Source of the DNA: Candidatus Saccharimonadota bacterium
GTDB lineage: Bacteria > Patescibacteriota > Gracilibacteria > Absconditabacterales > Absconditicoccaceae
DNA length: 32,000 bases
Reading direction: 5' to 3'
NCBI GenBank assembly: GCA_000503875.1
Contig: CP006913.1
Location: forward strand, 390,001-422,000
The translations under genes were made by a program, and so were the position numbers. Below the pieces are notes generated by a model. It was not told the origin of the DNA. It made no database searches and saw only the letters and a program-made list of their open reading frames with translations. Shown in pieces: positions 1,066-26,280 of the stretch. Each line of letters opens with the position of its first letter. Position 1 is the first letter of the stretch.

Positions 1066-2832
1066 TTATTGTTTCACAATCTTGAAAGTACGAGATTGTG
1101 TTTTGTCCTGTGTTGTTTTTATGATATAAGTTCCAGGACTGAACCCACTCATATCGATACTGTGTTTTTGTTGGCTATACCCCTTATAAAGGAGATTTCC
1201 AATGAGGTTAAATATTTCCACAGTACCATTTTTTTCGAGTTCTATTGTGCAGAGAGAAATTACAGGATTTGGATAGATTGTAATCTTTCCATTTTCTATA
1301 TCTTCTACTCCTGTGACGGTAACTTGTTCGCTATCAGAGTTTTTACAACCATGATTGTCGGTAACCGTAACTGAATAAGTACCAGAAGCACTTACTACAA
1401 TAGTTTGTGTTATTGCAGTCGTAGACCATAGATATTCAGAAAATCCTGTACCTGCATCTAACGTTGCATTTCCATTACCCGAAGTTTGTGTGATATTAAC
1501 CGTAGGTAGAGGATTAACAACAACGACAACTTGATCAGCAATAACACCACAAGAACCGTTAACAGTAGCGGTATAAGTTTTGGTTTCAGAAGGAGTAAAA
1601 GGCACGCCATCTACAACTCCGTTATCCCAACTTAATGTTCCGTTAGTATAAGAAGCGGTTAAGGTAACCTGTCCACCTTGGCAAACAGAAGCATCAGCTC
1701 CAGCATTAACCGTAGGTAGAGGATTAACAACAACGACAACTTGATCAGCAATAACACCACAAGAACCGTTAACAGTAGCGGTATAAGTTTTGGTTTCAGA
1801 AGGAGTAAAAGGCACGCCATCTACAACTCCGTTATCCCAACTTAATGTTCCGTTAGTATAAGAAGCGGTTAAGGTAACCTGTCCACCTTGGCAAACAGAA
1901 GCATCAGCTCCAGCATTAACCGTAGGTAGAGGATTAACAGTAATTACAACTTCATCACTAGCAAAACAATCATCTTTAGCAACACTAACTGAATAAGTAT
2001 CAGCAGAACCTATCTCGATAGTCTGAGTAGTTTGTCCATCAGGCCCCCAAAGATAAGTAGCTCCAATAACTCCAGCATCGAGTATTGTAGTAGAACCTTG
2101 GCAAATTGCTCTATCAGCACCAAGATTAACATTAAAAATTGTCTCTGTAATTACTACAGTACCATTCATCGTAATACTTCCACCAGCATTAGTAGCAACA
2201 CAGGTATAGCTTCCAGCAGAAATCCCAGTCCACTCAAGAGTGGAACCAGTAATACCAGTTTTTGCGCTACCTACATTAGCATTGCTAGCATCTTTTAACT
2301 GATAACTTGCACCAGTCTCAGAATTAGAAAGTAATATAGATTTTCCACCAGTGCCTTGACAATAAGCACCTGAACCAGTAAGATTATAAACAGTAGGTTT
2401 AGGTGGATTTTCCCATAATACAATAAAATTAAGTTCATTATAAGGAGGGACTACAAAATCTCCAACATGGACAGTTTGAAAATACTCTCCTTTGCTATTT
2501 TTTTGATTAATAGCTACTACATTAGTTTTTTGTATAGTTACCTGAAAAGTAAAAAGAGCAATATATTCTCCTTCAAAATCCCATCGATAACTACTAGGGC
2601 ATGATTGATTTGGTGGGCAGAAATCAGTATTGCCTACCTGGAAAATTCCATGGTTAAGTAAATAGTTCATTTTAACAGTATCGCATAATGCAAGATCAGT
2701 AGTTATGTAAAGATCATACGCTTTAGTTACCGTTGACTCGCTATTTACATAGATTGTTTGTTTTTGGGCATTACTATACTTCGTACCCAATATCACAATT
2801 AGCAAAATTAAAAAAAGTTTGAGTGCTTTCAT
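1066..2832 (-). CDS. secreted repeat-rich surface protein with a Bacteroidetes-type T9SS (Por) C-terminal sorting domain
   Basis: Uninterrupted 588-aa ORF (ATG at 2830-2832, TAA at 1066-1068). Signal peptide MKALKLFLILLIVILGTKYSNAQ. Two identical 70-aa Ig-like repeats (VNPLPTVNAGADASVCQGGQVTL...). The C-terminus KITIYPNPVISLCTIELEKNGTVEIFNLIGNLLYKG...PGTYIIKT...FKIVKQ matches the TIGR04183-type sorting-domain pattern as I remember it. By my count there are 56 Gly codons and none is TGA. Confidence 0.85.
   Translation of the reverse strand: MKALKLFLILLIVILGTKYSNAQKQTIYVNSESTVTKAYDLYITTDLALCDTVKMNYLLNHGIFQVGNTDFCPPNQSCPSSYRWDFEGEYIALFTFQVTIQKTNVVAINQKNSKGEYFQTVHVGDFVVPPYNELNFIVLWENPPKPTVYNLTGSGAYCQGTGGKSILLSNSETGASYQLKDASNANVGSAKTGITGSTLEWTGISAGSYTCVATNAGGSITMNGTVVITETIFNVNLGADRAICQGSTTILDAGVIGATYLWGPDGQTTQTIEIGSADTYSVSVAKDDCFASDEVVITVNPLPTVNAGADASVCQGGQVTLTASYTNGTLSWDNGVVDGVPFTPSETKTYTATVNGSCGVIADQVVVVVNPLPTVNAGADASVCQGGQVTLTASYTNGTLSWDNGVVDGVPFTPSETKTYTATVNGSCGVIADQVVVVVNPLPTVNITQTSGNGNATLDAGTGFSEYLWSTTAITQTIVVSASGTYSVTVTDNHGCKNSDSEQVTVTGVEDIENGKITIYPNPVISLCTIELEKNGTVEIFNLIGNLLYKGYSQQKHSIDMSGFSPGTYIIKTTQDKTQSRTFKIVKQ
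1501..1920. repeat. perfect 2 x 210-bp tandem duplication inside the T9SS-CTD gene. The repeat edge recurs at 1921-1940.
   Basis: 1501-1710 and 1711-1920 read identically by eye (cgtaggtagaggattaacaacaacgacaacttgatcagc...). Each encodes one 70-aa repeat. Confidence 0.9.
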
Positions 2833-3021
2833 ATTTTTATATTATTTTTTTGTTTTTAACTGAAAAAAATGTTAATTACCAACCTCAAAACAGATTCTAA
2901 TTATTTACCATAAAATGTCAATCTAAATATATAAGAAAGTATAGATTTCCTTGGTCAAAATCATACATCAGATTATAATTGTTTTATTGAATTTCCTTTT
3001 ACCTTGTATTATGCATGTATT

Positions 3022-5814: not shown

Positions 5815-8800
5815 ATGGGAAAGCTCAAAAAAACATGAATTATACTTGCTATATTTTGTATATCACAGATAATTTTTTCCGGTTTTGCTTTTGTATCTCC
5901 GATGTTAGTTATCAATAATACAGGGAATAATGCAAAAATACTTCCTATGAGAAAATGATGTCAACAGATAATCAATAATTGTGCTTATCCGATAGGAATA
6001 CTTATGTATCCTTCTTCAGCAACAAAATCATTTTTTGAAAACAAACCATCATGTGTAGTGTTGAGTGAGTGTGTAAAGACTATAAAATGTCCTGGTACAC
6101 TTCCTACAAATACAGAATGGAATACAAGTAGTAATTATGTACAAACATTTGATGGATTTAAATGGGTACCAACAAAAACTGCACATTATGATGCTACACC
6201 AGCATCAGATGATTGTAGATATGATTGTAAAACCAATTATTCATGGAACGGAACTAGTTGTATAGCGGATACAAGAACATATACATGTGCTGCAAAACCA
6301 ATAGGAACAGTGCGAAATACAGTAGGTAATTATTTACAAACATGGAATGGTACAACTCGAACACCATTAGATAGTACAACAAGTTATAGTACAACAGTAA
6401 GTACAAATTCTTGTAAATATAAATGTGATGTTTGATATAGATGGGATACTACAACTTCAAGTTGTATAAATACCTGTGCATTGCCATGGTGATGATGAAC
6501 AAAAACACATTGAGAAACAATAACAGCATATGATAAAACAAGTGGAACATGTACAACAAATAATTGTGCATCCGAAACACGTACATGTAATGGAGCGCTC
6601 TGAACATTTGATTGAACATATCAATATGCAAGTTGTACTCAAAACGCAAACACCCAAAGCTGTGTAATAGCAAACGGAGTAGGAACTCAATCATGTACAG
6701 CATGATCAACAAGTCGATGAACTTGTAATGTAGTAAGTTGTAACGCAGGATACCGTGCATCATGAAATACATGTGTAAATACATGCGCATTACCATGGTG
6801 AGGAACAATTACAAATGGACAATCAGTAACAGCATATGATAAAACGAGTGGAACATGTACAACAAATAATTGTGCATCAGAAACACGTACATGCAATGGA
6901 ACACTTTGAACATTAAATGGAACATATCAATATGCAAGTTGTACTCCAAACGCAAACACCCAAAGCTGTATAATAGCAAACGGAGTAGGAACTCAATCAT
7001 GTACAGCATGATCAACAAGTCGATGAACTTGTACTTTAGTAAGTTGTAACGCAGGATATCGTCCATTATGAAATACATGTATAAATACCTGTACATTACC
7101 ATGGTGATGAACAATTACAGATGGGCAACCAGTAACAGCATACGATAAAACAAGCGGAACATGTCCAACAAATAATTGTGCATCACAAATTCGTGTTTGT
7201 AACGGAACACTTTGAACATTAAATGGAACATATACGTATCAAAATTGTACAGCAAATGCAAATACGCAAAGCTGTACTGTTTCTAATGGTTGAGGAAATC
7301 AATCATGTGCAATATGATCAACAAGTCGATGATCATGTATAGTAAACCGATGTACTACAGATTATTATGATGATGGTTGAGCTAATGATTGTGTACATGT
7401 AGGAAATTGATATTATTCTAATAGTACATCAACAACAAGAACAGCATGTACAAATTATCCAGATACAGCAAGTCGTAATTATACATATACAAGTGCAGGA
7501 AATGGAACGAATAGTTGTACAGCAACATATACAGAATTATGTTGATTGGATTTATACGAGAATCCAATTGGAGTGTGTAGTGCAGTAGGAAACTGATATT
7601 TTTCACCAATAAACAATAATAGTAGAACATTATGTACAAATTATCCAGATACAGCAAGTCGTGATTATACATATACGAGTGATGGAAATGGAGCAAATAG
7701 TTGTACAGCAACATATACAGAACTATGTTGATTAGATTTATATGAAACATCAAATTGAGTGTGTAGTGCAGTAGGAAACTGATATTTTTCACCAATAAAT
7801 AATAATAGTAGAACATTATGTACAAACTATCCAGATACAGCAAGCCGTGATTATACATATACGAGTGATGGAAATGGAGCAAATAGTTGTACAGCAACAT
7901 ATACAGAACTATGTTGAGTAGATTTATATGAAACATCAAATTGAGTGTGTAGTGCAGTAGGAAACTGATATTTTTCACCAGCGAATAATAATAACAGAAC
8001 ATCATGTACAAATAAACCATCATACTCAACATATACAACTGATGGAAATGGAACAAATACTTGTTCACGAACTTGTGATACATGATATCACACAGAAGAT
8101 GGTGTTACTTGTATTTCAAATACGAAAACAACAAGTTGTACTGGGAAACCATTAGGAACGACATATTATACTGCAACAGATATAACACAAACATGGAATA
8201 CTAGCTTAAGTGCATGGCTTCCAAGTGCTGTAGCAACATACAGTACAACAGCAAGTACAACAGAATGTAGATACACCTGTGCAGCTTGATATCTTCGAAA
8301 TGGATCTTCATGTGTAGCGTGATGTAAAACTAATAGTGATTGTAGTTTATGAAAAATATGCCAATGATATGTAGCCCCTACTCGAAAATGTTTAGGAACT
8401 CAATTAAATAATTGATCTTGTAGTCAAGAGCCACTCCCATGATTTTGTGATAGTGAAGATTCTCCTTGTAGTACATATGATACATATTATGATTGTCAGG
8501 ATACGGATCGTTGTCATCTAGGAAAGCCTGGTATATGTAACCGAAATTGAACCTCTTGTATATGAATTACTAGTCAAACTACATGTAGTGCGACAGCATG
8601 ATGTTCAGTAAGTAATACATCATCAGAAGTATTTTGAACCTGTGTAACACCTACTCCTGTCTGTGGAAATGATATTGTAGAGATAGGGGAAACATGTGAT
8701 TGAGGAAGTCAATCATGTAGTATTGGAGGTGTAGCAGGAACTCAATTATGTAATAATACATGTAGTTGATATGGTACTTGTTTAGTAAGTCCATGTATAG

Positions 8801-9933
8801 CAAGTTATAATACAGATGTATGTTGATGATGTAAATGAAGTTGGACTATGTCAAGTTGTGATAATCGTGAATGTACTCCTGATGGTCTTGAAGATGCAAT
8901 ATGGAATTGTTCTTATGCTTGAATAACAAAACAATGTTATTCAGTATTAGGAGATCCATGTAATACATCAACATGTTTTACCTCTGGTACTCAAGTAAAA
9001 ACAGCAGATGGAATAAGTAAAAATATTGAAAATATTCAAATAGGAGACGAATTATTAGGTCAAGACGATCAAATAAATACTGTTATTGCATATGACCGTC
9101 CAAATCTTGGAGAAAGAAAACTTTATAGCATAAATAATGGACCATATTTTGTGACTCATGAACATCCATTTATGACTATATGATGATGGAAATCTATAAG
9201 TCCAGAAGCAACTCGAAGAGAAATGCCTAACTTTGAAATATTACCACTCAAAGTGGGAGATATTCTTATAAAAGAAAATAATGAAATTGAGTACATATGG
9301 AGTATCCAATCAACGACAGCAGATCCAGAAATACCATTATACAACTTTAAATTAGACGGAAATAATACTTATTATGCAAACGGATATTTAGTACACAATA
9401 AATTATATGATTGAGATGGTTGTACATTAAGTTCTCAATGTGCATGTGGATCTTGTGTTGGTTGAGTATGTTGTCCTACAGGAGGAGGCTGATGTTTCAA
9501 AGAATGAACACAAGTACGTTTACCAGATGGAACAACAACAGCTATAGAAAATATTCAAACAGGAAATATTGTATTATGATCAGAAAATACTCAAAACACA
9601 GTTCTCAAATTATTTAAAATCTGGAATAATAATTGGGATCTTTATGCAATAAATAATTCTGATTATTTTGTTACTGATACACATCCATTTATGACAACAG
9701 AAGGATGGAAATCATTGAATCCAGTATGATCTAGCAAAGAAAATCCAGGTATGATATTCTGACAACTTGAAATTGGTGATATACTTATAACAGAACAAGG
9801 AACAACTATTATATACTCATTAGAAAAAACAGCATATGCATGATATGTATATAATTTTAGATTAGATGGAAATAAAACATATTACGCAGATTGATATCTA
9901 GTACATAATGTAGAGATAAAATCTGTTGAATAA
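5815..9933 (+). CDS. giant secreted cysteine-rich repeat protein (1372 aa) ending in two tandem Hint (bacterial intein-like) domains
   Basis: One frame from ATG 5815 to TAA 9931-9933 with TGA = Gly; I walked the whole frame and found no TAA/TAG. N-terminal hydrophobic segment GIILAIFCISQIIFSGFAFV. Three ~102-aa repeats (CxLPWGG.I..G..V.AYDKTSGTC.TNNCAS..R.CNG.LG...). Four 62-aa repeats (VGNGYFSP.NNN.RT.CTNYPDTASR.YTYTS.GNG.NSCTATYTELCG.DLYE). One CGNDIVEIGETCD motif resembles the myxococcal Cys-rich repeat. Two Hint domains follow. Confidence 0.85.
6475..7395. repeat. 3 x ~306-309-bp coding tandem repeat (Cys-rich CxLPWGG module)
   Basis: Unit starts at 6475, 6784 and 7090 (tgtgcattgccatggtga / tgcgcattaccatggtga / tgtacattaccatggtga), with long near-identical stretches. 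Confidence 0.85.
7399..8142. repeat. 4 x 186-bp coding tandem repeat (VGNGYF...CTNYPDTASR module)
   Basis: Unit starts gtaggaaa(t/c)tgatat at 7399, 7585, 7771 and 7957. Copies 2 and 3 are almost identical. Confidence 0.85.
8974..9399 (+). other. Hint domain 1 (bacterial intein-like, 142 aa)
   Basis: Starts CFTSGTQVKTADG (block A Cys1), contains VTHEHPFMT (block B TxxH) and ends YYANGYLVHN (block G HN). The next residue is Lys, not Cys/Ser/Thr. Confidence 0.8.
9493..9909 (+). other. Hint domain 2 (139 aa), 31 aa downstream of Hint 1 in the same protein
   Basis: CFKEGTQVRLPDG ... VTDTHPFMT ... YYADGYLVHN, followed by only VEIKSVE and the stop. Confidence 0.8.
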
Positions 9934-9961
9934 TAATTGTATTTAATTTAATTATTTTTTC

Positions 9962-11167
9962 ATGAAACAGAAAATGACTTTCAAAAATCTAGAAAAAAAT
10001 ATATTTGTTGTTGGGATATTGTTTTTTTGAATAATAGGTGTCATTTTTGCTATAAATACTCAGAATGAATGATGGAGAATTACTAAAAGTGGTAGCTCAG
10101 CAACAGTTAATGTCCATAATGAATGTCGCGTTGTTACAAATAACCGTACAGATAATGATATTTTTGTACCAACAAGTTCAAGCGCAGAATGGCTATCTTT
10201 TAGAAATAATTTACCAACTAATGTTATTTTAGCTGAATGTGCAACTTGTTGATCTGCAAATTGATGAAGTTTTTCTCATCTTTTACCAACTGCTTCAACA
10301 CTTTGTCCCTCAGGAGTGACAGCAACTAATTTTCAATATCACGAGGGAATGATGGCAAAAGCCACTATATTTGGTGCAGTATATGCTGATTATATTGATG
10401 GTTATCGAGATTGGAATTGTGGTATATCTTATTGTTTTGCAAGTCATACGGTTGCCGGAGATCCTCCGACAAGTTATACATGTTCAGAGTCAGATTCAGC
10501 TTGTAGTTTATATTTTTCTGATACATGTTATAATACAAATACCATATGAGCAACCATCTGTGGTGTCGGAAATCATAAGGCAACATGTACCAGTGCATGA
10601 TGGGATGATGGGGGATGGTGTAGTGCGACATGTTTTGTAGAAAACACTCCTGTATTAATAATGGATGGATCTCATAAAAATATACAAGATGTTATTATTG
10701 GTGATATATTATTAGGTAAAGATAACACACCAAATAAGGTTATTGATTATTATCGTCCTATATTATGAGCAAGAAAATTGTACAGTATAAATAATGGTTT
10801 ATATTTTGTAACTCCAGAGCATCCATTTATGACGCTATGATGATGGAAATCTATAAATCCAGAAGCAACTCAAAGAGAAATGCCTAATTTCGAAATACTA
10901 CCCCTTAAAGTAGGTGATATATTGGTTAAAGAAAATGGAGAATCAGAATATATACGAACAATGTCATCAATATCAGTAGATCCAGAAACTCAATTATATA
11001 ATTTTAAATTAGATGGAAATAATACTTATTATGCAAATGGATACTTAGTACATAATAAATCACAGTGTCTCACTAATTCCGATTGTTCATCTGTTGGAGT
11101 TGGTTCTTGTTGTAATAACGGAACTTGTACAATACTTGTCAATTGAGTACGACCGACATGTAATTAA
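9962..11167 (+). CDS. secreted cysteine-rich protein (401 aa) with a Hint domain and a 36-aa Cys-rich C-terminal tail
   Basis: ATG 9962 to TAA 11165-11167, one frame with TGA = Gly. N-terminal TM/signal NIFVVGILFFGIIGVIFAI. Motif DIFVPTSSSAEWLSFRNNLP. Hint domain. Tail KSQCLTNSDCSSVGVGSCCNNGTCTILVNGVRPTCN. Confidence 0.85.
10631..11056 (+). other. Hint domain 3 (142 aa)
   Basis: CFVENTPVLIMDG ... VTPEHPFMT ... YYANGYLVHN. About 80% identical to Hint 1 at DNA level by eye (for example EMPNFEILPLKVGDIL is shared). Confidence 0.8.
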
Positions 11168-11575
11168 ATAAGTATCAATAAGAAAAGTGATTTTATATTT
11201 TATAAAACCATGAAGAAAAGTATACTGATTATAATTATATTGGTAGTTTTTTCATGAGTTGGTTTATTATTAGCAGCAAACCAATGATATTTTTGATATT
11301 GAGTGTCAAATACATTATCGGTAGCAAAATTAAATCAATCAGCAGGTTCAGCTGGAGCCGTATCTACATCAGTTTCCAAAGTAGAAGAGCATGGTATATG
11401 TAAAACAATAACTTCTACCAACACTAAACTTCTTTTTGTTCCTACAAAAACTGCAACAGAACGATCAACTTTTATAACAAAAAAACCAAATCATATAATA
11501 CTTGGTTCATGTGGATGTACAACGAATTCTGATTGTAGTGTTTGAAGTATATGTTCATGATATGTTGCTGGGGCA
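11166..11575. repeat. copy A of a ~410-bp duplicated module (upstream region plus first ~120 codons)
   Basis: aaataagtatcaataagaaaag... through ...tgttcatgatatgttgctgg matches 12150-12560 with scattered substitutions. Confidence 0.8.
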
Positions 11576-12052
11576 TGATATTGTGATGGAGAATTTGTAT
11601 ACAATAGTCCTGCATATTGTCAGAACGATTGTCGTGATGGACCTACTTGTGATCCTTGTACTGGAGTGACAAATCAGTGGGATTGCGAATCACAAACTCA
11701 GTGAGATCCTTGATATGAGTTTCAAGCTTGTTCTCGAATACCTGAGCAACCATGATGAACAGCTTATTGTGGTCAAGAATTTAGAACCCAAAGTGAATGT
11801 AATACTGCTCCTTCTGAATGTACTTGGGTAAATTGAACAGCAACACCATGAACGTGTGTTGCTCCAGTTGCTGTTTGTTGAAATGGTATAATTGAAGGTA
11901 CAGAACAGTGTGATGAACCAGCAAATATGTGAGATATGACTTCTTGTTCACGGACAGAAAATCTTCAACAGAAATGTAGCTCATGTCATTGTCAAACAAC
12001 CTGTCAGTCATATATAGATCCTAATGCTTGAAGAGTAGTTTGTTCAATGTAG
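11210..12052 (+). CDS. secreted cysteine-rich protein (280 aa), a Hint-less member of the family
   Basis: ATG 11210 to TAG 12050-12052 with 16 in-frame TGA (hand count). Signal/TM SILIIIILVVFSGVGLLLAA. Conserved ICKTITSTNTKLLFVPTKTATERSTF, CGCTTNSDCSVGSICSGYVAG and CGNGIIEGTEQCD motifs. Confidence 0.8.
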
Positions 12053-12106
12053 TCTATATTAGAATAGTAAATAATGATATTTGAAAAGATATATTTTATA
12101 AAGAAA

Positions 12107-12134
12107 GGCCTCTATGAAAATAGAGGTTTTTTTC
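12107..12134 (+). terminator. rho-independent terminator
   Basis: cctcta (12109-12114) pairs with tagagg (12121-12126), followed by a run of 7 T. Confidence 0.7.
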
Positions 12135-12149
12135 TTGATTGTAAAATTG

Positions 12150-12560
12150 AAATAAGTATCAATAAAAAAGGTAATTTTATATGTAATTAAATTATGAAAA
12201 AAAACTTATTAGCCATAATACTATTGATAATTTTTTCATGAGTCGGTTTATTGCTAGCAGCAAATCAATGATATTTTTGATATTGAGTATCAAGTACATT
12301 ATCGATAGCAAAATTAAATCAATCAGCAGGTTCAGCCGCAGCAATATCTACTACAATCCCAAAAATAGAAGAGCATGGTATATGTAAAACAATAACTTCT
12401 ACTGACACTAAACTTCTTTTTGTTCCTACAAAAACGGCAACAGAACGATCAACTTTTATCACAAACAAGCCAAGTCATATAACGCTTGGTACCTGTGGAT
12501 GTACAACAAATGCTGATTGTACTGTAGGACAAATTTGTTCATGATATGTTGCTGGAGCAA
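12150..12560. repeat. copy B of the ~410-bp duplicated module
   Basis: See copy A. The junction motif tttttttcttgattg(t/c)aaaa also recurs after both terminators (12127-12148 and 13821-13842). Confidence 0.8.
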
Positions 12561-13777
12561 ATTCTTGTCAAGGATCTTATGAATCAACATCTTTTTGGTG
12601 TGTATGAAAATCAATTCCTGATAGTTCTCCTCCATACGTTTGTATGAAGTCAGGTGAACCTTATCAATTAGTTCCAGCAGATTGATGTCCATCAGGTCGA
12701 AGTTTATGATTTATTCAATGATGATCTATTCTGTCTGTATCAGAAACTCTATGTCAGATTATAGACCAAACTGATTTTCAATTACCTAATTGTGAGTATA
12801 AATGTAATACATATACAACATCATCTACTTGTAATGCTAATTCATCATATTGTGATTGGGTATCAAGAAATAACTCATTATCTTGTTCTTCATTTAACCA
12901 AACAACATGTCAATCAACAAATGGTTGTGATTGGGTACCTTGAACACCAGTAACATTAGGAACTTGTACAACTCAAATATGTGGTAATGATATTAAAGAA
13001 TGAACAGAATTGTGTGATGGTTATGATCTTCAAATACCGTGTACTACGACTTTATGAAAAGTTTGAACAAAATACTGTAATAGTACCTGTAATTGATATA
13101 CTACTTGTGTAGCAGATCCAACACCACCATCATGATCAACTTGTGTCCCTAAAAATTGTTTTATAGCTGATACAAAAATTAAACTAGCTGACGGTAGCAC
13201 AAAGCCAATTCAAGAAATAACAACAAAAGATATCGTATATAGTGTATCATGAAAAAAGAATAAAGTAATATGAACATCAAAAAGATTGGATACGACACCA
13301 CTTTATGCATTTAACAATAGTAATCATTATTTTGTAACAGAGGCACATCCGTTTCTTACATTAGATGGATGGAAATCACTAAATCCAGACGCAACAAATC
13401 AAGAAAATCCATGATTGATGGTAACTAAATTATCTATATGAGATATATTAATCACAGAAAAATGAACTACCACATTATTTGCTATCGATTCTATCCCAAA
13501 CAAACAAGGAACATATGTATACAATATTACTGTAGAAAACACCCATGATTATTATGCTGATTGATATGCTGTTCATAATAAATTACAATGTTTAGATATT
13601 GGCTTATATCCATGTGATGGTTGAATGTATTGTGCTGATAATGCATCTCAATGTGAACAATGTCCTGTTGGACTATGTGATCCATGTACTAGTACTTCTC
13701 AATGTCCTGTAGATAGTTATTGTCATTCTATAAATAAAATGTGTCGACCGAGTAGCTGACCAGTTTGTGCATTATAA
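12194..13777 (+). CDS. secreted cysteine-rich protein (527 aa) with a Hint domain and a 65-aa Cys-rich C-terminal tail
   Basis: ATG 12194 to TAA 13775-13777, one frame with TGA = Gly. The first ~120 aa are near-identical to the 11210 gene. Contains a CGNDIKEGTELCD motif, a Hint domain and the tail KLQCLDIGLYPCDGGMYCADNASQCEQCPVGLCDPCTSTSQCPVDSYCHSINKMCRPSSGPVCAL. Confidence 0.85.
13157..13579 (+). other. Hint domain 4 (141 aa)
   Basis: CFIADTKIKLADG ... VTEAHPFLT ... YYADGYAVHN, followed by Lys. Confidence 0.8.
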
Positions 13778-14989: not shown

Positions 14990-16027
14990 CTATCTAATTT
15001 CAATTGCATATCCTGTAAGTTGACCGGCTAATTTTACATTTGATGCTCACTTTCCAATAGCTAATGGTTTTTGAGATTCATCCATAGTAACAATAGCTTT
15101 CTTATCTTTGATTTCTATAGTATCTACATGTGCTGGTTTGAGACAATTTTTGATCATCTGTTTACTATCTCCATTGTTTTCTACAAAATCGATTTTTTCA
15201 CCATCAAGAAGTGATAAGACGGTATTGATTCTATCTCCCTTACTTCCTACCATTACTCCTACTGGATCGATTTTCTCATCAGTTGATGATACGACAATTT
15301 TGGTTTTCAAACCAGGAATTCTTGCCATTTTTTCTATTTTAATAATTCATTCTTCAAGTTCTGGTACTATTTTTCTTAGGATTGCTTCGATATATTCAGT
15401 ACTTGTCTGAGTAATTTCCAATACGATTCCACCTTGTCCTTTAGAAATTTGCTTCAAAAGTACGAAAATTTCTTCACCTGGTTCATATGATCTATTTGGA
15501 ATTTGTCCTTCAGCACCAAGAACCACAGCTGTTCCTTCAATATCTAAGATTACGCTATCAGCATGTACTCTGATAACTCTTGCTTTGAGAAGTTCTCATT
15601 GTTTGTTTTGGAATTTTTCGTAGAATCTTTCTCTTTCGATATTTTTGAGGTTTTGCTTGATTGTTTGAGCAGCAGCTTGTGAAGCAATTCTAGAAAGTTC
15701 AAGTCTTTCAGGAGTTACATTGATCAAAATAGCTTCTCCTACTTCCACATCTTTTCTAATTTTTTTAGCTTCTTTAAGGATAATTTGCAATTCTGGATCT
15801 TCTATTTCGCTTTCCTTATTTACTACGATCAATTCTTTGTATATAGTTACTGTTCCATCATTTTCGATATTTACAATAATTTGTGATTTTTTAAATTCAG
15901 GAAAATCTTTTTTGAAACCAGATTTAATTCCTAATTTTACGATTTCTAATACGCTATACGGATCGAATTTATAATCATCTACAAGTTGCATAATAGCTGC
16001 TTGGATACTTTTACCATCTAATCTCAT
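14990..16027 (-). CDS. nusA: transcription termination/antitermination factor NusA (345 aa)
   Basis: ATG at 16025-16027, TAG at 14990-14992, three in-frame TGA. S1 and KH regions align to E. coli NusA from memory (KIDPVGVMVGSKGDRINTV; AIGK-G-ASNVKLAGQLTGY, where TGA 15047-15049 sits on the conserved Gly of GxxG). Confidence 0.9.
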
Positions 16028-16082: not shown

Positions 16083-16223
16083 TACTGCGATGATAGATAT
16101 TTCAATGAGCTTTTCAATGGGAAATATAATGAAATAATCTACTTCCAATTGAAAAAACCTATCAAATAATTAATCATTAATTGTTAATTCATAATATAAA
16201 GATATTAATGTTTATTTTTTATT

Positions 16224-16354
16224 GTTACTTTTTGCTCCCAGGTCAAAAAGTAACCAAAAACCCCTCGTGAGCTGTTACATTTTCTTAACGGTAGAAAATA
16301 TAAACAAATTCGACTCCATATATTTTCTTTACCTAAAAATGTAAGCGCTCACCT
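16224..16354. repeat. left copy (131 nt) of the inverted repeat bracketing gltX; itself a multi-hairpin element
   Basis: Its reverse complement matches 18083-18186 plus 18254-18280 with 3 mismatches. Internal hairpins: gttacttttt/aaaaagtaac (16224-16254) and gtgagc.gttacatttt ... aaaatgtaa..gctcac enclosing ggtagaaaatata/tatattttct.tacc. Confidence 0.9.
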
Positions 16355-16380
16355 TTAATTTTAAATCATTAATTAAACTT

Positions 16381-18024
16381 ATGACTACTCGAAAAGAAAT
16401 TGCAGACAAGATATTCCCAAATGTAACAGAAACTATTCAAGATCTCGAAAAGAAATATCCAACAAGACAAAACCCTATTTGTTCGCGTTTTGCACCAAGT
16501 CCAACAGGATTTTTGCATATTGGAAGCGTATTCGCCTCATTCGTAGAACAAAGATTTGCTAAACAATATGGTGGAACTTTTTTGTTGAGAATAGAAGATA
16601 CAGATCAAAAAAGAGAAATTCCAGGAGCTGTTGATCTGATTATTGATTGATTAAAATTTTTTGGTATTGAAATAGATGAAGGTCCCTTAGGAGCAAATAA
16701 TGCCGATATAGGAAATTATGGGCCATATATACAATCTCATAGAAAATCTATTTATCAGGTATTTGTAAAAACATTGATAGAACAAGGAGTAGCATATCCA
16801 TGTTGGATGTCTGAAACAGAATTAGAAGAAATTAGAACACAACAAACAACGCTCAAAGTTACCCCTGGAATCTATGGAAATTATTCCTTATGGAGAAATA
16901 AAACACCAGAAGAAATTATGCAGAAATTACAAGAAGATCCTAATTTTGTCCTAAGATTTCGTTCTCATGGAGATTTTAGTCAAAGATGTCTTTTTGATGA
17001 TGTGATCAAGGGCAAAATCAATATGATCGATAATTATAATGATATTGTTCTTATTAAATCAGATGGCTTACCAACCTATCATTTAGCGCATATTGCTGAT
17101 GATCATTTGATGAGAACTTCTCATGTTATTAGAGGGGACGAATGGCTTACTTCTGTGCCTTTACATATTCAATTATTCAAAGCATTTAACCTTCCACATC
17201 CGCAATATTGTCATGTAGCCCCTTTACTCAAAATTGATGAAGAAGGAAATAAGAGAAAACTTTCCAAAAGAAAGGATCCAGAGGCTGATGTTGCTTATTT
17301 TTTTGAAAGTGGATATGCACCAGAAGGTATTATGGATTACTTGCTGACTATCATAGATCCAGCATATGAAGAACGACAAAAGGCAAATCCAGATAAAAAC
17401 TATCTCGATTTCGAAGTAAAAATTGAACATATGAATACCTCAGGAGCCTTATTCGATTTTGTAAAGCTGCAAAGCATGAATAATGCCTATCTTTCCAAAA
17501 TTTCAACAGATGAACTCTATAGTCAAAGCCTTATTCGAGCTAAAAAATACAGGCCATACCTAGCAGATCTTATGCAAAGTGACGTTGATTATACCAAGGC
17601 AGCGCTCAATATAGAAAGACATACCGAGAAAGATCCAAAGAGATTTACTACGTTTCAAGACGTAGAATCGCAAATTCTCTTCTTTTATGATGAGGAATGG
17701 GAAAAACTCCTTCCAACCAAGCCAACACTTCCAGAAATGTGTACAGCTGATAGTATGAAGCCATTTATCGACGAATATAAACAACAATTAAATCTGGATA
17801 TGTCACTCGAAGATCGATTTACTCAACTTAAAGAAGTTGGAAAACGTCACGGATTTGCTTCCAACAACGCAGAATTCAAAGAATGATGATATGTCGGGAA
17901 GGTCGGGGACCTTGCTATGTTTATGAGAATACAACTTTGCTGTACAGCAAAGACCCCCGACCTTTACTCAGTTATGAAGGTTCTGGGAAAAGATAGAGTA
18001 ATTGAGAGATTAGGAAGATTATAA
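16381..18024 (+). CDS. gltX: glutamyl-tRNA synthetase (547 aa)
   Basis: ATG 16381 to TAA 18022-18024, with three TGA (16648, 17884, 17887). Class I motifs RFAPSPTGFLHIGS (HIGH) and KLSKRK (KMSKS). TGA 16648-16650 aligns with Gly in the E. coli segment IMDGMNWL. Confidence 0.9.
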
Positions 18025-18082
18025 AATATTATATCAATAAAAAATTATTCAAAGTCGATAGCGCAAATCTAAACCAATAAAT

Positions 18083-18280
18083 AGGTGAGCGTTTACATTT
18101 TTAGGTGAAGAAAATATATGGAGTCGAATTTGTTTATATTTTCTACCGTTAAGAAAATGTAACAGCTCACGAGGGGCTTTTGGTTATACTCGAACACCCA
18201 AAGAATCTTTAAAGAACTTGCTTTGGGATGTGAGAGGTGTATGCTTTAGTATACTTTTTGACCTGGGAGCAAAAAGTAAC
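18083..18280. repeat. right copy (198 nt) of the gltX-bracketing inverted repeat, carrying a 67-nt extra segment
   Basis: See the left copy. The extra segment 18187-18253 is flanked by the direct repeat tatact (18185-18190 and 18250-18255) and has its own hairpin cccaaag/ctttggg. Confidence 0.9.
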
Positions 18281-18314
18281 GTAGAGAAAAAATATATTTT
18301 TCTATTTTTTTTGT

Positions 18315-18560
18315 TAAAAAAAATCGCTAATCGAAACGACTAGCGATCCAAATGAGCGCTAGGTGCTGGTTTTATCAAACCAATCTGAATACAGATATAA
18401 CCTAATTCTCATTTATTTCTATCTGCCTCCGTTTGGTACAGATGCTAGATAGGGTGTTTTAGGAGGAAATACACTCCAACATAGCACCTAATCGCAGGTA
18501 TTCATGTGTAGTGAAGCCTTTGCTAAGTTAACTATGTTGTTTTAATTATATCCAGAACCA
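18315..18560 (-). ncRNA. candidate structured small RNA of unknown class (about 200-240 nt)
   Basis: Non-coding gap. On the minus strand it ends in ggatcgcta-gtcgtttcgat-tagcgat followed by a U-run (plus 18322-18350), a good intrinsic terminator. A long-range 12-bp helix pairs gcgctaggtgct (18356-18367) with agcacctaatcgc (18482-18494) and encloses small hairpins (atctg-aata-cagat; ggttt-tatc-aaacc). The 5' end and the strand are not certain. Confidence 0.4.
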
Positions 18561-18621
18561 AAAAATTTACCAAAAAAGAGTATCTAGGACTATAAAATGA
18601 GGTTGACATTTTTTTAAAAAC

Positions 18622-18654
18622 AAAAAAAACTCGACATCCTATAAGGAGCGAGTT
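18622..18654 (-). terminator. possible terminator of the 327-aa gene
   Basis: Stem aactcg (18628-18633) pairs with cgagtt (18649-18654) across a 15-nt loop, with a U-run on the minus strand (A-run 18622-18629). Confidence 0.4.
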
Positions 18655-18656
18655 TA

Positions 18657-19640
18657 TTATAATTCAGTTTTTGAAGGTATATTTTCTTCCAAATATTTTT
18701 CAATAATATGTGGAATATCCAATTCCATAATATCTATATTTTTCTTTAGATATTCCATTATTGGATGATTGTCTAATCCTTCAAAAGGAATAACGGTTAC
18801 TTTATCACTTTGAAAGAACATAATGGGTTGTGTCTCTTGTTCTTTAATTACAATTAGATCAAAGTTATTGTTTTTCTTCTGTATAGATACAGAAACACTA
18901 TCTTCCAATTGTACATAGCTAGGCGGCACACCCAATTCTTTGGAAATAGTAATAAATTTTTTTACTCCCGAAGTTTCATTTGCAAAGATATCAATACTGA
19001 CAGTAACATTATCTTTTGTAAAAGAATTAATAGTTCTTTTGTTCGGAAATAATAATTCAATTCTCTCTTTTTTTGTTAAACGGTTCTTTTTAAACACCTT
19101 TTTTTTATAGGAAGGACGATTAAGAACATATTTATCAAAAAAACTTTGATTCTGTGTTTTGAATAAACGATTATCATAAGGCACAGAACTAGCTAAATAA
19201 GCTTTGGAAGCTGTGTAATTTCCTTTAGATACTCGAATACCAAAGAATTCTTCGAACAATTCGTTTCCATCGAATATGTAAGCGGGTATTTGTTTTATAA
19301 TATATTCAAATACAGGAGTCCATAATGCGATGGTATCGGTTTTTAGAGTTTTTGCCACATGAACATGTAGCGTTTCTCCATTGCCGAATTTTTCATCTTT
19401 TTTTTGTTCGTTGAACTCCGATTTGAACTTCCTATTCTTAAAATAATAGGGGTAATCTTCTGTGATTGGATCCGTAATGATAATCTCATAAGGAAGTTCT
19501 TTTTCAAAATCATTTGGAGTATTATACCACTTCTTAGAAATTTGCACTTCTCCATGGTAATACAATCTCCACCACCATTCTTTTGCCGACAAGTTTTCTG
19601 TCGGTAATGGTTCTTTTTCTACCGACATTTTTGTTTTCAT
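18657..19640 (-). CDS. hypothetical protein (327 aa), with no Cys and no TGA
   Basis: Uninterrupted ATG (19638-19640) to TAA (18657-18659) ORF. Lys/Glu/Phe-rich, with WWW and YY clusters near the N-terminus. No domain recognised. Confidence 0.7.
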   Translation of the reverse strand: MKTKMSVEKEPLPTENLSAKEWWWRLYYHGEVQISKKWYNTPNDFEKELPYEIIITDPITEDYPYYFKNRKFKSEFNEQKKDEKFGNGETLHVHVAKTLKTDTIALWTPVFEYIIKQIPAYIFDGNELFEEFFGIRVSKGNYTASKAYLASSVPYDNRLFKTQNQSFFDKYVLNRPSYKKKVFKKNRLTKKERIELLFPNKRTINSFTKDNVTVSIDIFANETSGVKKFITISKELGVPPSYVQLEDSVSVSIQKKNNNFDLIVIKEQETQPIMFFQSDKVTVIPFEGLDNHPIMEYLKKNIDIMELDIPHIIEKYLEENIPSKTEL

Positions 19641-19698
19641 TTTTTTATTGTTTTTATTTAGTATTTACTTATATCTATTTACATAATAAAGTCAATAC

Positions 19699-19725
19699 AA
19701 AAAAAGACAACCACGTAGGTTGTCT
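19699..19725 (-). terminator. rho-independent terminator of gyrB
   Basis: agacaacc (19705-19712) pairs with ggttgtct (19718-19725). On the minus strand this is followed by 7 U (A-run 19699-19705). Confidence 0.75.
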
Positions 19726-25997: not shown

Positions 25998-26280
25998 TAT
26001 TATCTTGCTTTTTCTTAGCAAAATCGTAAATAAAAAGAATATGATTAAATAGATTTTTAATACTTCTTTTTGTAATTTGAACAATAAAAAGAACAAATAA
26101 AAGAAGGAAATCATCACCAAACCAACATTATTCGTAGCCAAAAAGCAGCGATATAATCTAGCTAGACTATAATCCTAAATAGAAATACTGCCTTGATGAT
26201 GGATGAATTTTATTTGTTTTTTATTGTGAAATAATTTAATGACGTTTAATTAACGATTTTATAAACTTTATGACTAATAT

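What the first reader, a model, noticed from the sequence alone, without database searches (positions are those of the whole stretch)
16224..18280. A ~131-nt inverted repeat brackets the essential gltX gene
16224-16354 ends 26 nt before the gltX ATG. Its reverse complement, 18083-18280, starts 58 nt after the stop. The two match with only 3 mismatches, apart from a 67-nt extra piece in the right copy (18187-18253) flanked by a tatact direct repeat. Each copy is itself a long compound hairpin.

If both lie on the gltX transcript, the mRNA ends could form a duplex of more than 100 bp, giving an RNase III target, mRNA circularisation or stability control. At DNA level the arrangement is that of an invertible segment or of two MITE-like insertions.

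I see no recombinase or transposase nearby. A repeat of this length and identity cannot be chance.
Basis: seen in the sequence. Interest (0 to 1): 0.66.

Follow-up and report, generated by a model that had tools for sequence, protein, structure and literature searches.

The report
Dispersed hairpin repeat copies flanking gltX
The inverted repeat around gltX is real, but it is two copies of a small non-coding hairpin repeat that is scattered through the genomes of this bacterial group (and built on a hairpin shared with other phyla), not a device made for gltX.

Summary
16224-16354 and the reverse complement of 18083-18280 differ by 3 mismatches plus a 67-nt insertion.

The pair is not specific to gltX. 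The 131-nt unit is a dispersed intergenic repeat in code-25 (SR1/Absconditabacteria-type) genomes. I collected about 20 copies, with at least 4 in one MAG, and several contigs end inside a copy.

A relative at about 90% protein identity has no left copy and only a decayed right copy. A more distant relative has no copy after gltX.

The unit is a 31-nt hairpin (H1, GTTACTTTTTG-N9-CAAAAAGTAAC), an A-rich linker and a long hairpin (H2). H2 is maintained by compensatory changes: 7 pairs against 2.5±1.0 in shuffles.

It has no terminal inverted repeats, no target-site duplication and no transposase nearby, and there is no Rfam, phage or plasmid match. H1 plus linker also occurs in at least 115 loci of Bacteroidota, Peribacteria, Cupriavidus and others, intergenic with no bias in gene orientation.

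Best reading: a REP/BIME-like non-autonomous mosaic repeat. The left copy is probably a recent local copy of the older right-site copy. The right copy also supplies the only terminator-like signal after gltX.

An mRNA 5'-3' duplex is thermodynamically possible, but the pair is not conserved and transcription is untested.

The parts
16224..16354 (+). Left copy of the 131-nt repeat element. H1 hairpin is 16224-16254 (GTTACTTTTTG-CTCCCAGGT-CAAAAAGTAAC), the A-rich linker is 16255-16266 (CAAAAACCCCTC), and the long hairpin H2 is 16267-16352.
   Evidence: (I16, I18). The covariance model scores it 177 bits. It lies between the divergent nusA (14990-16027, -) and gltX. It is absent at this position in the ~90%-identity relative L128.
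18083..18280 (-). Right copy, in inverted orientation. On the + strand, H2' is 18085-18170, followed by GAGGGGCTTTTGG, then the insertion, then H1' at 18250-18280.
   Evidence: (I17). The covariance model scores it 153 bits. It carries the only terminator-like site on the + strand after gltX, at 18164-18178 plus a T-tract. The same site is occupied in relatives L129 and L130 (H1 at the contig end) and holds a decayed copy in L128.
18187..18253 (.). 67-nt nested insertion in the foot of H1 of the right copy. It is a 65-nt palindromic piece (TACT...AGTA) plus a duplicated TA.
   Evidence: It is present in an independent sample's assembly (L127).
16381..18024 (+). gltX (glutamyl-tRNA synthetase, 547 aa, read with code 25). 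It is the bracketed gene and is not part of the element.
16214..16223 (+). Conserved T-rich 5' flank (consensus TTTCTnTAT, ending in AT in 11 of 13 copies). It is either a preferred target site or the true left edge of the element.
   Evidence: The same motif precedes H1 in many Bacteroidota copies.

Best explanation
The two arms are two members of a dispersed family of small, non-coding, hairpin-forming repeat elements. The family is REP/BIME-like: non-autonomous and mosaic.

**Architecture.** Each unit is a short hairpin H1 with a sequence-conserved stem, an A-rich linker, and a long hairpin H2. The structure of H2, rather than its sequence, is maintained. Other small palindromic modules insert at the H1/linker junction.

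**History at this locus (inferred).** The site downstream of gltX, next to a conserved small-RNA-like gene, has been occupied for a long time. The copy upstream of gltX is specific to this lineage. It is most likely a recent local copy of the right-site element, made before the 67-nt piece landed in the right copy. Concerted evolution (gene conversion) between two older copies is not excluded.

**Role.** Bracketing gltX is therefore incidental. As a side effect, the right copy probably terminates gltX transcription, since it is a long hairpin followed by a U-tract.

**Mobilisation (inferred, about 0.3 confidence).** The absence of TIRs and TSDs, the conserved 5'-flank motif and the structure-maintained hairpins fit best with movement as folded single-stranded DNA by a trans-acting HUH/Y1 (RAYT/IS200-like) enzyme.

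**Shown:** family membership, dispersal, the structural constraint, and non-conservation of the pair. **Inferred:** the direction of copying, the terminator role and the enzyme.
For: **Dispersal**
- About 20 full or partial copies at unrelated intergenic sites in code-25 MAGs and metagenome contigs, 81-97% identical to the left copy.
- At least 4 copies on two contigs of one MAG, JAQUVI01.
- The composite carrying a 42-nt extra module sits at two loci with different flanks in one MAG (L008 and L037).
- At least 6 contigs end inside a copy, which is the usual assembly break at a repeat: L037, L073, L120, L127, L129, L130.

**The pair is not conserved**
- L128 (neighbouring ORF 90% identical) has 61 nt with no element between the conserved upstream motif and the gltX ATG.
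- L128 has a decayed copy at the right site: CM 61 bits, E=2e-12, H2 pairing kept, H1 lost.
- L106 has gltX followed by the next ORF after 35 nt.
- L129 and L130 (ORF 43% identical) carry H1 at the right site in the same orientation.

**The two window copies are each other's closest relatives.** They alone share the U-A/U-A state at alignment pairs 173/196 and 175/194.

**Structure is under constraint.** 98% of cells are paired. 7 pairs have changes on both sides, against 2.5±1.0 in shuffles (0 of 500 reach it) and 0-2 when the partners are slid.

**Not a DDE-type MITE**
- Same-copy flank similarity equals cross-copy similarity, so there is no TSD.
- The ends are not inverted repeats.
- No transposase or recombinase in the window, and no recurrent protein family near 115 H1 loci.

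**Wider family**
- H1 plus linker occurs in at least 115 loci of other phyla, where about 1-10 matches are expected by chance (my estimate). The 12th stem pair covaries G-C, T-A and C-G.
- The linker lies on exactly one side in 111 of 137 hits, and that side is the more structured (p=0.005).
- There is no bias in the orientation of neighbouring genes: 38:40 and 39:37.
- A second module, CCTGCCTGCCGGCAGGCAGG, is shared between SR1 and Bacteroidota copies.
- In L107 an H1 element abuts a REP cluster flanking a Y1_Tnp gene (3e-29).
Against: - No mobilising enzyme was identified in any SR1-type genome. The Y1 link rests on one Saprospiraceae locus.
- No clean filled-versus-empty site pair with alignable flanks was found, so insertion as such is inferred from the distribution, not seen.
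- The source genome could not be scanned whole, so its copy number outside the window is unknown.
- The right-site copy stays near consensus in relatives whose neighbouring protein has diverged to 43% identity. H2 pairing also survives in the decayed L128 copy. This could mean host-level selection (terminator or RNA function) rather than a purely selfish element.
- Identity of the H1 stem across phyla is unusual for REP-type repeats, which are normally lineage-specific.
- Intermediates in H2 are both G·U and C·A, so the functional strand or molecule is undetermined.
Confidence: 0.7

Rival explanations
1. gltX-specific RNA control. Both copies lie on the gltX mRNA, and its 5' and 3' ends pair into a duplex of about 130 bp that is cut by RNase III or that circularises and stabilises the message.
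For: The inter-arm duplex is much more stable than the two local folds: cofold -243 kcal/mol against -99, with 138 intermolecular pairs. Only 26 nt without an obvious promoter or Shine-Dalgarno sequence separate the left copy from the ATG. Promoter-like sites lie upstream of the copy at 16111-16138 and 16149-16177. The left copy could therefore be in the 5' UTR.
Against: The arrangement is absent from the closest relatives, so it is not a conserved regulatory design. Single copies of the same element sit next to unrelated genes in every orientation. Each arm folds locally and co-transcriptionally (z=-5.5), 1.7 kb before its partner exists. The right copy looks like the terminator, so much of it may not be transcribed past H2'. 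No expression data are available.
Confidence: 0.07
2. Invertible DNA segment. The inverted repeats are the crossover sites of a switch that flips the 1.7-kb gltX segment.
For: 104-131 nt of 97% identical inverted repeat is enough for occasional RecA-mediated inversion. One short-read assembly breaks inside the right copy (L127).
Against: No recombinase gene is present. Flipping a whole gene together with its own start region has no obvious regulatory consequence. Two independent assemblies and the relatives L128 and L106 all show the same gltX orientation relative to each flank. The assembly break is what any repeat produces.
Confidence: 0.04
3. A multi-copy small structured RNA gene. Each unit is transcribed on its own as a 5' hairpin, an A-rich single strand, and a long terminator-like hairpin with a U-tail.
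For: There is covariation in both helices. The 3' flank is T-rich, and the motif just before H1 ends in TAT or AAT, with TATAAT in L008. The element sits in the same orientation directly after a conserved small-RNA-like gene in three lineages.
Against: The upstream hexamer mostly lacks the critical A at position 2 and abuts H1, so a start site 6-8 nt downstream would destroy H1. Both strands tolerate mismatches equally, with G·U and C·A both present. No Rfam family matches. Nested insertions, truncated copies and decayed copies are typical of repeats and not of RNA genes.
Confidence: 0.1
4. A host-selected bidirectional terminator or insulator module. The A/T arms of H1 provide U-tracts for hairpins on either side. 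This does not exclude mobility.
For: The right copy is the only terminator-like signal after gltX. In L128 the decayed copy keeps the hairpin and a T-tract. In L073 the element sits 27 nt after the gyrB stop, exactly where the window has an ordinary terminator hairpin. In GC-rich genomes a GC hairpin directly abuts GTTACTTTTTG.
Against: Neighbouring genes point toward the element no more often than away from it (38:40 and 39:37). The left copy and L008 lie between divergent gene starts. A terminator role does not explain conservation of GTTAC.
Confidence: 0.15

Closest known systems
REP / REPIN elements mobilised by RAYT (HUH Y1) transposases, and their mosaic clusters (BIMEs)
   Same: Short extragenic palindromes in many copies, with no TIR and no TSD. 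They combine as mosaics with other palindromic modules and show compensatory maintenance of the hairpin. They persist at orthologous sites across species, and no transposase is adjacent to most copies. One related element abuts a REP cluster around a Y1_Tnp gene (L107).
   Different: There is no unpaired GTAG or CGTC tag of the kind described for the two REP super-families (PMC3733652). Bacteroidota relatives have CTAG before the second hairpin. The unit is two different hairpins, not an inverted REP doublet. The H1 stem is identical across phyla, whereas REPs are normally lineage-specific. No RAYT was found for the SR1-type genomes.
MITEs of bacteria (Correia/NEMIS, RUP, ERIC, Nezha and similar)
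   Same: A ~130-nt non-coding element that folds into a long hairpin. It is dispersed in intergenic regions, causes assembly breaks, and can carry terminator or promoter signals.
   Different: No terminal inverted repeats, no target-site duplication, and no related full-length IS. Only the 65-nt nested piece in the right copy looks MITE-like, with TACT/AGTA ends and a TA duplication.
PATEs, the gene-less derivatives of IS200/IS605
   Same: No TIR or TSD, hairpins at the ends, and a conserved short motif on the 5' flank only, as expected for insertion 3' of a target penta-nucleotide.
   Different: H1 starts at the element boundary rather than 10-20 nt inside it. No parental IS200/IS605 with these ends was seen. 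Target-specific insertion was not demonstrated.

Membership tests
MITE (DDE-transposase derived) | Terminal inverted repeats at the two ends of the element | tested here: not met
   The ends GTTACTTTTTGC... and ...GCGCTCACCT are not complementary. Each hairpin is internal to one end.
MITE (DDE-transposase derived) | Target-site duplication flanking each copy | tested here: not met
   In 13 copies, 5'/3' flank identity within a copy equals that between copies (for example 6.08 against 6.09 of 9). Only two copies have longer direct repeats, and these lie at a distance.
MITE (DDE-transposase derived) | A related autonomous IS with the same ends | tested here: inconclusive
   None was found in about 1 Mb of held loci or in the phage and plasmid collections. 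Whole genomes could not be scanned.
REP / REPIN-RAYT | Short imperfect palindrome, extragenic, many copies per genome | tested here: met
   13 of 121 H1 hits fall in predicted ORFs and the rest are intergenic. There are at least 4 copies in JAQUVI01 and at least 12 H1 hits in Crocinitomicaceae Ww7.
REP / REPIN-RAYT | Conserved unpaired tetranucleotide tag (GTAG or CGTC) at one end of the palindrome | tested here: not met
   H1 begins with a paired GTTAC. GGTAG inside H2 is paired and is replaced by GCTAG with a compensatory change in L106. Bacteroidota relatives have CTAG before the second hairpin.
REP / REPIN-RAYT | A cognate single-copy RAYT gene, itself flanked by the repeats | tested here: inconclusive
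   None in the window. L107 has a Y1_Tnp gene flanked by other REPs, with an H1 element adjoining. The RAYT-like gene in L025 has its own unrelated GTAG REP. SR1 genomes could not be scanned.
IS200/IS605-derived PATE | Insertion 3' of a fixed tetra- or penta-nucleotide, without duplication | tested here: inconclusive
   The 5' flank ends in TYWAT in 11 of 13 copies. No empty site with alignable flanks was available to prove insertion.
Rfam structured RNA families | A match to a curated covariance model | tested here: not met
   No hit at gathering score in the window or in 18 related loci. No hit on the element at E≤10.
Invertible (phase-variable) segment | A site-specific recombinase nearby and both orientations observed | tested here: not met
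   No recombinase. There is a single orientation in 2 assemblies and in 2 relatives. Raw reads were not available.

The most novel reading that the evidence does not exclude
The gltX repeat is the SR1/Absconditabacteria form of an undescribed, cross-phylum superfamily of mosaic palindromic elements. The superfamily is built on a 12-bp-stem, 7-nt-loop hairpin (GTTACTTTTTG...CAAAAAGTAAC plus a CAAAAA linker). Its stem sequence is the same in Bacteroidota, CPR lineages, Beta- and Gammaproteobacteria, Dadabacteria, Elusimicrobia and Spirochaetes. That would imply one conserved, still unknown recognition machinery: a promiscuous single-strand HUH-type mobiliser or a universal host factor. It would also imply horizontal exchange of modules between CPR bacteria and their neighbours.
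Probability: 0.3. Interest if true: 0.6.

Novelty: new variant of a known kind. Interest (0 to 1): 0.35.

Why it matters
For gltX itself it matters little. The bracket is incidental, so no new mode of synthetase regulation should be inferred from it.

Three points reach wider.
- Small-genome CPR bacteria (code 25) carry an active-looking family of structured repeats. These break assemblies and can supply terminators.
- The family fits neither the MITE definition (no TIR, no TSD) nor the REP definition (no GTAG or CGTC tag).
- Its core hairpin, and at least one other module, are shared with distant phyla. If one enzyme or host factor recognises that hairpin, it would be a handle on how such repeats spread, and a marker of DNA exchange between CPR bacteria and Bacteroidota in the same habitats.

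Tried and rejected
**Searches that found nothing**
- Rfam, at gathering score and at E≤10, on the window and on 18 loci: nothing on the element.
- Literature full-text searches for the hairpin as DNA and RNA strings, and for SR1 MITEs: nothing relevant. REP/RAYT papers give no matching sequence.
- Viral contigs: 0 H1 hits. The phage and plasmid collections gave no match to the 151-nt element. Two weak, unannotated H1-like hits on Pseudomonas and Diaphorobacter plasmids were uninformative.

**Ideas tested and dropped**
- A protein family recurrently next to H1: only short-chain dehydrogenases, a chance finding from a large family.
- TSD: rejected. Distant flanking direct repeats occur in only 2 of 15 copies.
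- Strand inference from G·U against C·A intermediates: no bias.
- A general terminator role: no 3'-end bias.
- A promoter in the conserved 5' flank: the hexamers are poor and misplaced.
- tRNA minihelix, attC, CRISPR repeat, ssDNA-replicon origin and uptake-sequence ideas for H1: considered from memory and dropped for lack of the defining motifs, or because copies are single rather than in arrays.

**Tool failures and limits**
- A GltX homologue search timed out twice.
- Some remote calls failed and were repeated.
Full report
**1. The observation**

The window has 32% G+C. Its genes can only be read with TGA as a sense codon: stop-to-stop ORFs of at least 100 aa total 17,811 aa with TGA read through, against 5,495 aa with table 11. 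TGA falls on invariant glycines, in GyrB (SGGLHGV, DSAGGSAKQGR) and in RpoD (QEGNIGL) (the motifs are from established knowledge). This indicates genetic code 25, that is an Absconditabacteria (SR1) or Gracilibacteria-type bacterium.

The window is 100% identical to NCBI DPJE01000003.1 (GCA_003543185.1) and to an ENA sediment contig.

gltX is 16381-18024 on the + strand: tRNA-synt_1c 2.4e-66 plus Anticodon_2. It lies between nusA (14990-16027, -) and an unknown ORF (18657-19640, -).

The repeat is exactly as described. 16224-16354 against the reverse complement of 18083-18280 shows 3 mismatches and one 67-nt insertion. Each copy is two hairpins.

BLAST and a covariance model built from 16 family members find only these two copies in the 32 kb.

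**2. Anatomy**

The unit has three parts:
- H1: GTTACTTTTTG-N9-CAAAAAGTAAC, at 16224-16254.
- A linker: CAAAAACCCCTC.
- H2: 16267-16352, an ~86-nt stem-loop with a conserved 2x2 internal loop and an invariant TTTTCTTAACGGTAGAAAA stretch.

On an alignment of 16 copies, 98% of cells pair. Seven pairs show changes on both sides, against 2.5±1.0 in column shuffles (0 of 500 reach it) and 0-2 when the partners are slid. Examples are GTTACATTTT/AAAATGTAA, GTTGAATTTT/AAAATTCAA and GCTGCATTTT/AAAATGCAA.

Half-compensated states are G·U about as often as C·A. The strand or molecule that matters therefore cannot be read from the data.

The ends are not inverted repeats of each other. Flank similarity within a copy equals that between copies, so there is no target-site duplication. 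The 5' flank is T-rich and ends in AT in 11 of 13 copies (TYWAT|G). The 3' flank is T-rich.

The 67-nt extra piece in the right copy is a 65-nt palindrome (TACT...AGTA) with a duplicated TA, inserted in the foot of H1.

The H1/linker region is an insertion hot spot. Six copies carry a different 42-nt hairpin module there. One copy (L122) carries the 20-nt palindrome CCTGCCTGCCGGTAGGCAAG inside the 3' arm of H1.

**3. A dispersed family**

An exact-pattern scan for H1 in one genome per species, and a scan for an H2 pattern in metagenomes, brought in full 131-nt relatives (81-97% identity). They sit at unrelated intergenic sites of code-25 MAGs, some of them labelled Peribacteria:
- JAQUVI01 (Absconditabacteria) has at least 4 copies on two contigs.
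- CAYRHE01 has the 42-nt-module composite at two loci with different flanks.
- CAZOFM01 has at least 3.

Copies occur between divergent, convergent and tandem genes, and almost always singly. At least six contigs end inside a copy. One of these is an independent assembly of the window's own locus (L127). It stops in H2 of the right copy and already contains the 67-nt insertion.

**4. The pair is not conserved**

L128 comes from GCA_964384835.1, and its neighbouring ORF is 90% identical.
- Only 61 element-free nucleotides lie between the conserved upstream motif (ttgaaaaa.ctatcaaat) and the gltX ATG.
- The right site holds a decayed copy. H2 still pairs through compensatory changes, H1 is unrecognisable, and there is no 67-nt piece. 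The covariance model scores it 61 bits, E=2e-12.

L106 (GltX 73% identical, NusA 88%) has an element near nusA, an extra ORF before gltX, and nothing after gltX.

L129 and L130 (neighbouring ORF only 43% identical) have H1 of a copy at the right site, in the same orientation, at the contig end.

So the right site is old, or is repeatedly re-used. The left copy is lineage-specific.

The two window copies alone share the derived U-A/U-A state in the apical helix. I infer that the left copy is a recent local copy of the right-site element, made before the nested insertion. Alternatively, the two were homogenised by gene conversion.

gltX keeps the same orientation relative to each flank in all assemblies and relatives.

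**5. The wider family**

They come from Bacteroidota (Crocinitomicaceae, Chitinophagaceae, Saprospiraceae, Cytophagales and others), Peribacteria, SR1, Cupriavidus isolates, Xanthomonadales-type MAGs, Dadabacteria, Elusimicrobia and a spirochaete. My estimate of the number expected by chance for 20 fixed bases in 596 Gb is about 1-10.
- The 12th stem pair covaries (G-C, T-A, C-G) around a 7-nt loop.
- The CAAAA linker is on exactly one side in 111 of 137 hits.
- The linker side is the more structured: median z -1.5 against -0.7, p=0.005.
- In a Crocinitomicaceae genome the architecture matches the SR1 unit: a long hairpin, then TTTTTG, then H1.
- In many Bacteroidota the second module is a CTAG-headed palindrome (CTAGGCAAAC...GTTTGCC).
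- Hits are intergenic. Neighbouring genes point toward the element no more often than away from it: 38:40 and 39:37.
- No protein family recurs next to them.
- There are no hits in viral contigs, and no Rfam family or literature match.
- The palindrome CCTGCCTGCCGGCAGGCAGG is a second module shared by SR1 and Bacteroidota copies.
- In one Saprospiraceae locus (L107) an H1 element abuts a cluster of REP hairpins and a 53-nt tandem array. These flank a genuine Y1_Tnp gene (3e-29) in inverted orientation, which is the classic RAYT/REP arrangement.
- Y1-like ORFs turned up in 3 of 115 loci by a motif screen. One of them (L025) has its own unrelated GTAG REP.

**6. Mechanism**

What is shown:
- It is a multi-copy, non-coding, structure-constrained repeat family.
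- It has no TIR, no TSD and no adjacent transposase.
- It is a mosaic with nested palindromic modules.
- Some sites persist across lineages, while others are gained or lost.

What is inferred:
- The element moves as folded single-stranded DNA through a trans-acting HUH/Y1-type enzyme, as REP/REPIN elements and IS200/IS605 derivatives do.
- The conserved 5'-flank motif would then be the target.
- My confidence in this specific mechanism is about 0.3.

What is plausible at this locus:
- The right copy terminates gltX. H2' followed by GAGGGGCUUUUGG is the only terminator-like signal on the + strand there.
- In L128 the hairpin and T-tract survive although the rest of the copy has decayed.
- In L073 a copy replaces the ordinary terminator found after gyrB in the window.
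- Termination cannot be the general reason for the family, given the absence of any 3'-end bias.

**7.

If both copies were on one RNA, the inter-arm duplex (-243 kcal/mol) would be far more stable than the two local folds (-99).

Against it:
- The pair is not conserved.
- The arms fold locally and long before the partner is made.
- The right copy probably ends the transcript.
- Whether the left copy is transcribed with gltX is unknown. Promoter-like sites lie upstream of it, and none is convincing in the 26-nt gap.

It remains a low-probability, testable side effect.

**8. Verdict**

The gltX-centred interpretation is not supported, and the 'MITE-like family' alternative is right in substance.

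The element is best filed as a new variant of the REP/BIME kind. It fails the defining tests for MITEs and lacks the REP tags. The unexpected part is the cross-phylum identity of its core hairpin and the shared module library.

Noticed in passing
window 18311-18650 (- strand): A strongly conserved non-coding region lies between the ORF 18657-19640 and the right repeat copy. It is 87% identical in L128 and 84% in L129/L130, where the adjacent protein is only 43% identical. It has a promoter-like TTGGTA-17-TATAAT at 18573-18545 and a terminator hairpin at 18349-18321 plus a T-run. This suggests a small RNA of about 225 nt. The only Rfam hint is a sub-threshold full-length match to nqrA-II (33.6 bits against a gathering score of 55) at 18290-18451.
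   Followed up: partly
window 26073-26233: An intergenic stretch upstream of lepA is about 92% identical to L119 9547-9775, where it lies roughly 800 nt from a repeat copy. It is 78% identical in L128. It has a long-range stem (AAAGAACAAATAAAA / TTTTATTTGTTTTTT). It has no Rfam or tRNA hit and may be another small RNA.
   Followed up: partly
whole window: TGA codes for glycine (genetic code 25). It falls on invariant Gly residues of GyrB, RpoD and LepA. Gene calls made with table 11, as in the NCBI record L126, are shattered into fragments.
   Followed up: yes
L001-L115 (genome-contig hits), e.g. L013 7708, L010 606, L083 6332/6831/7198: The 31-nt hairpin GTTACTTTTTG-N9-CAAAAAGTAAC plus a CAAAAA linker is present with an identical stem in at least 115 loci from several phyla. 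The closing pair covaries. The hairpin is often part of longer mosaic repeats, with 3 tandem units in L083. It is undescribed in Rfam and in the searched literature.
   Followed up: partly
L122 1281-1300; L026 2280 and 4620; L021 73; L042 1519; L050 389; L102 2538: The 20-nt palindrome CCTGCCTGCCGGCAGGCAGG recurs next to or inside H1 hairpins in both SR1-type and Bacteroidota genomes. It is a second module shared across phyla.
   Followed up: partly
L107 1357-3250: A Y1_Tnp (IS200-like, YIQKQEEHH type) gene at 2552-3010 is flanked by inverted CCGTGCCGTGAGGTACGG hairpins and by a 53-nt tandem array of CGTTCCTAACGGAACG hairpins. An H1 element directly adjoins the cluster.
   Followed up: partly
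window 16172-16182 and 16364-16374; L106 around 1857 and 2071: An 11-nt direct repeat AATCATTAATT lies 52 nt before and 9 nt after the left copy. In L106 a 14-nt or longer repeat, part of the hairpin AAAGACGTTTTGTCAAAACGTCTCT, flanks the element at -63/+24. Repeats this long occur in about 1% of cross-copy controls. They may mark larger inserted units or local duplications.
   Followed up: partly
window 5815-13777: This is a run of large secreted, Cys-rich proteins with Hint/Hom_end_hint (intein-like) C-terminal modules. A 415-nt segment is repeated at 85% identity between 11162-11575 and 12145-12559, the N-termini of two paralogues.
   Followed up: no
window ~19680-19710 (- strand) vs L073 7521-7600: Downstream of gyrB the window has an ordinary terminator hairpin (aaagacaacctacgtggttgtcttttttt). 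The relative L073 has a copy of the repeat element starting 27 nt after the stop codon at the equivalent place.
   Followed up: yes
L025 1416-1443: A RAYT-like ORF (NHIH...YIASNP; weak Y1_Tnp match, 5.8e-05) contains a perfect GTAG-headed palindrome (GTAGAGACGCAA/TTGCGTCTCTAC) inside its coding region. This is as described for RAYT subclass 2.4 and is unrelated to the H1 hairpin 3.4 kb away (PMC6006769).
   Followed up: partly
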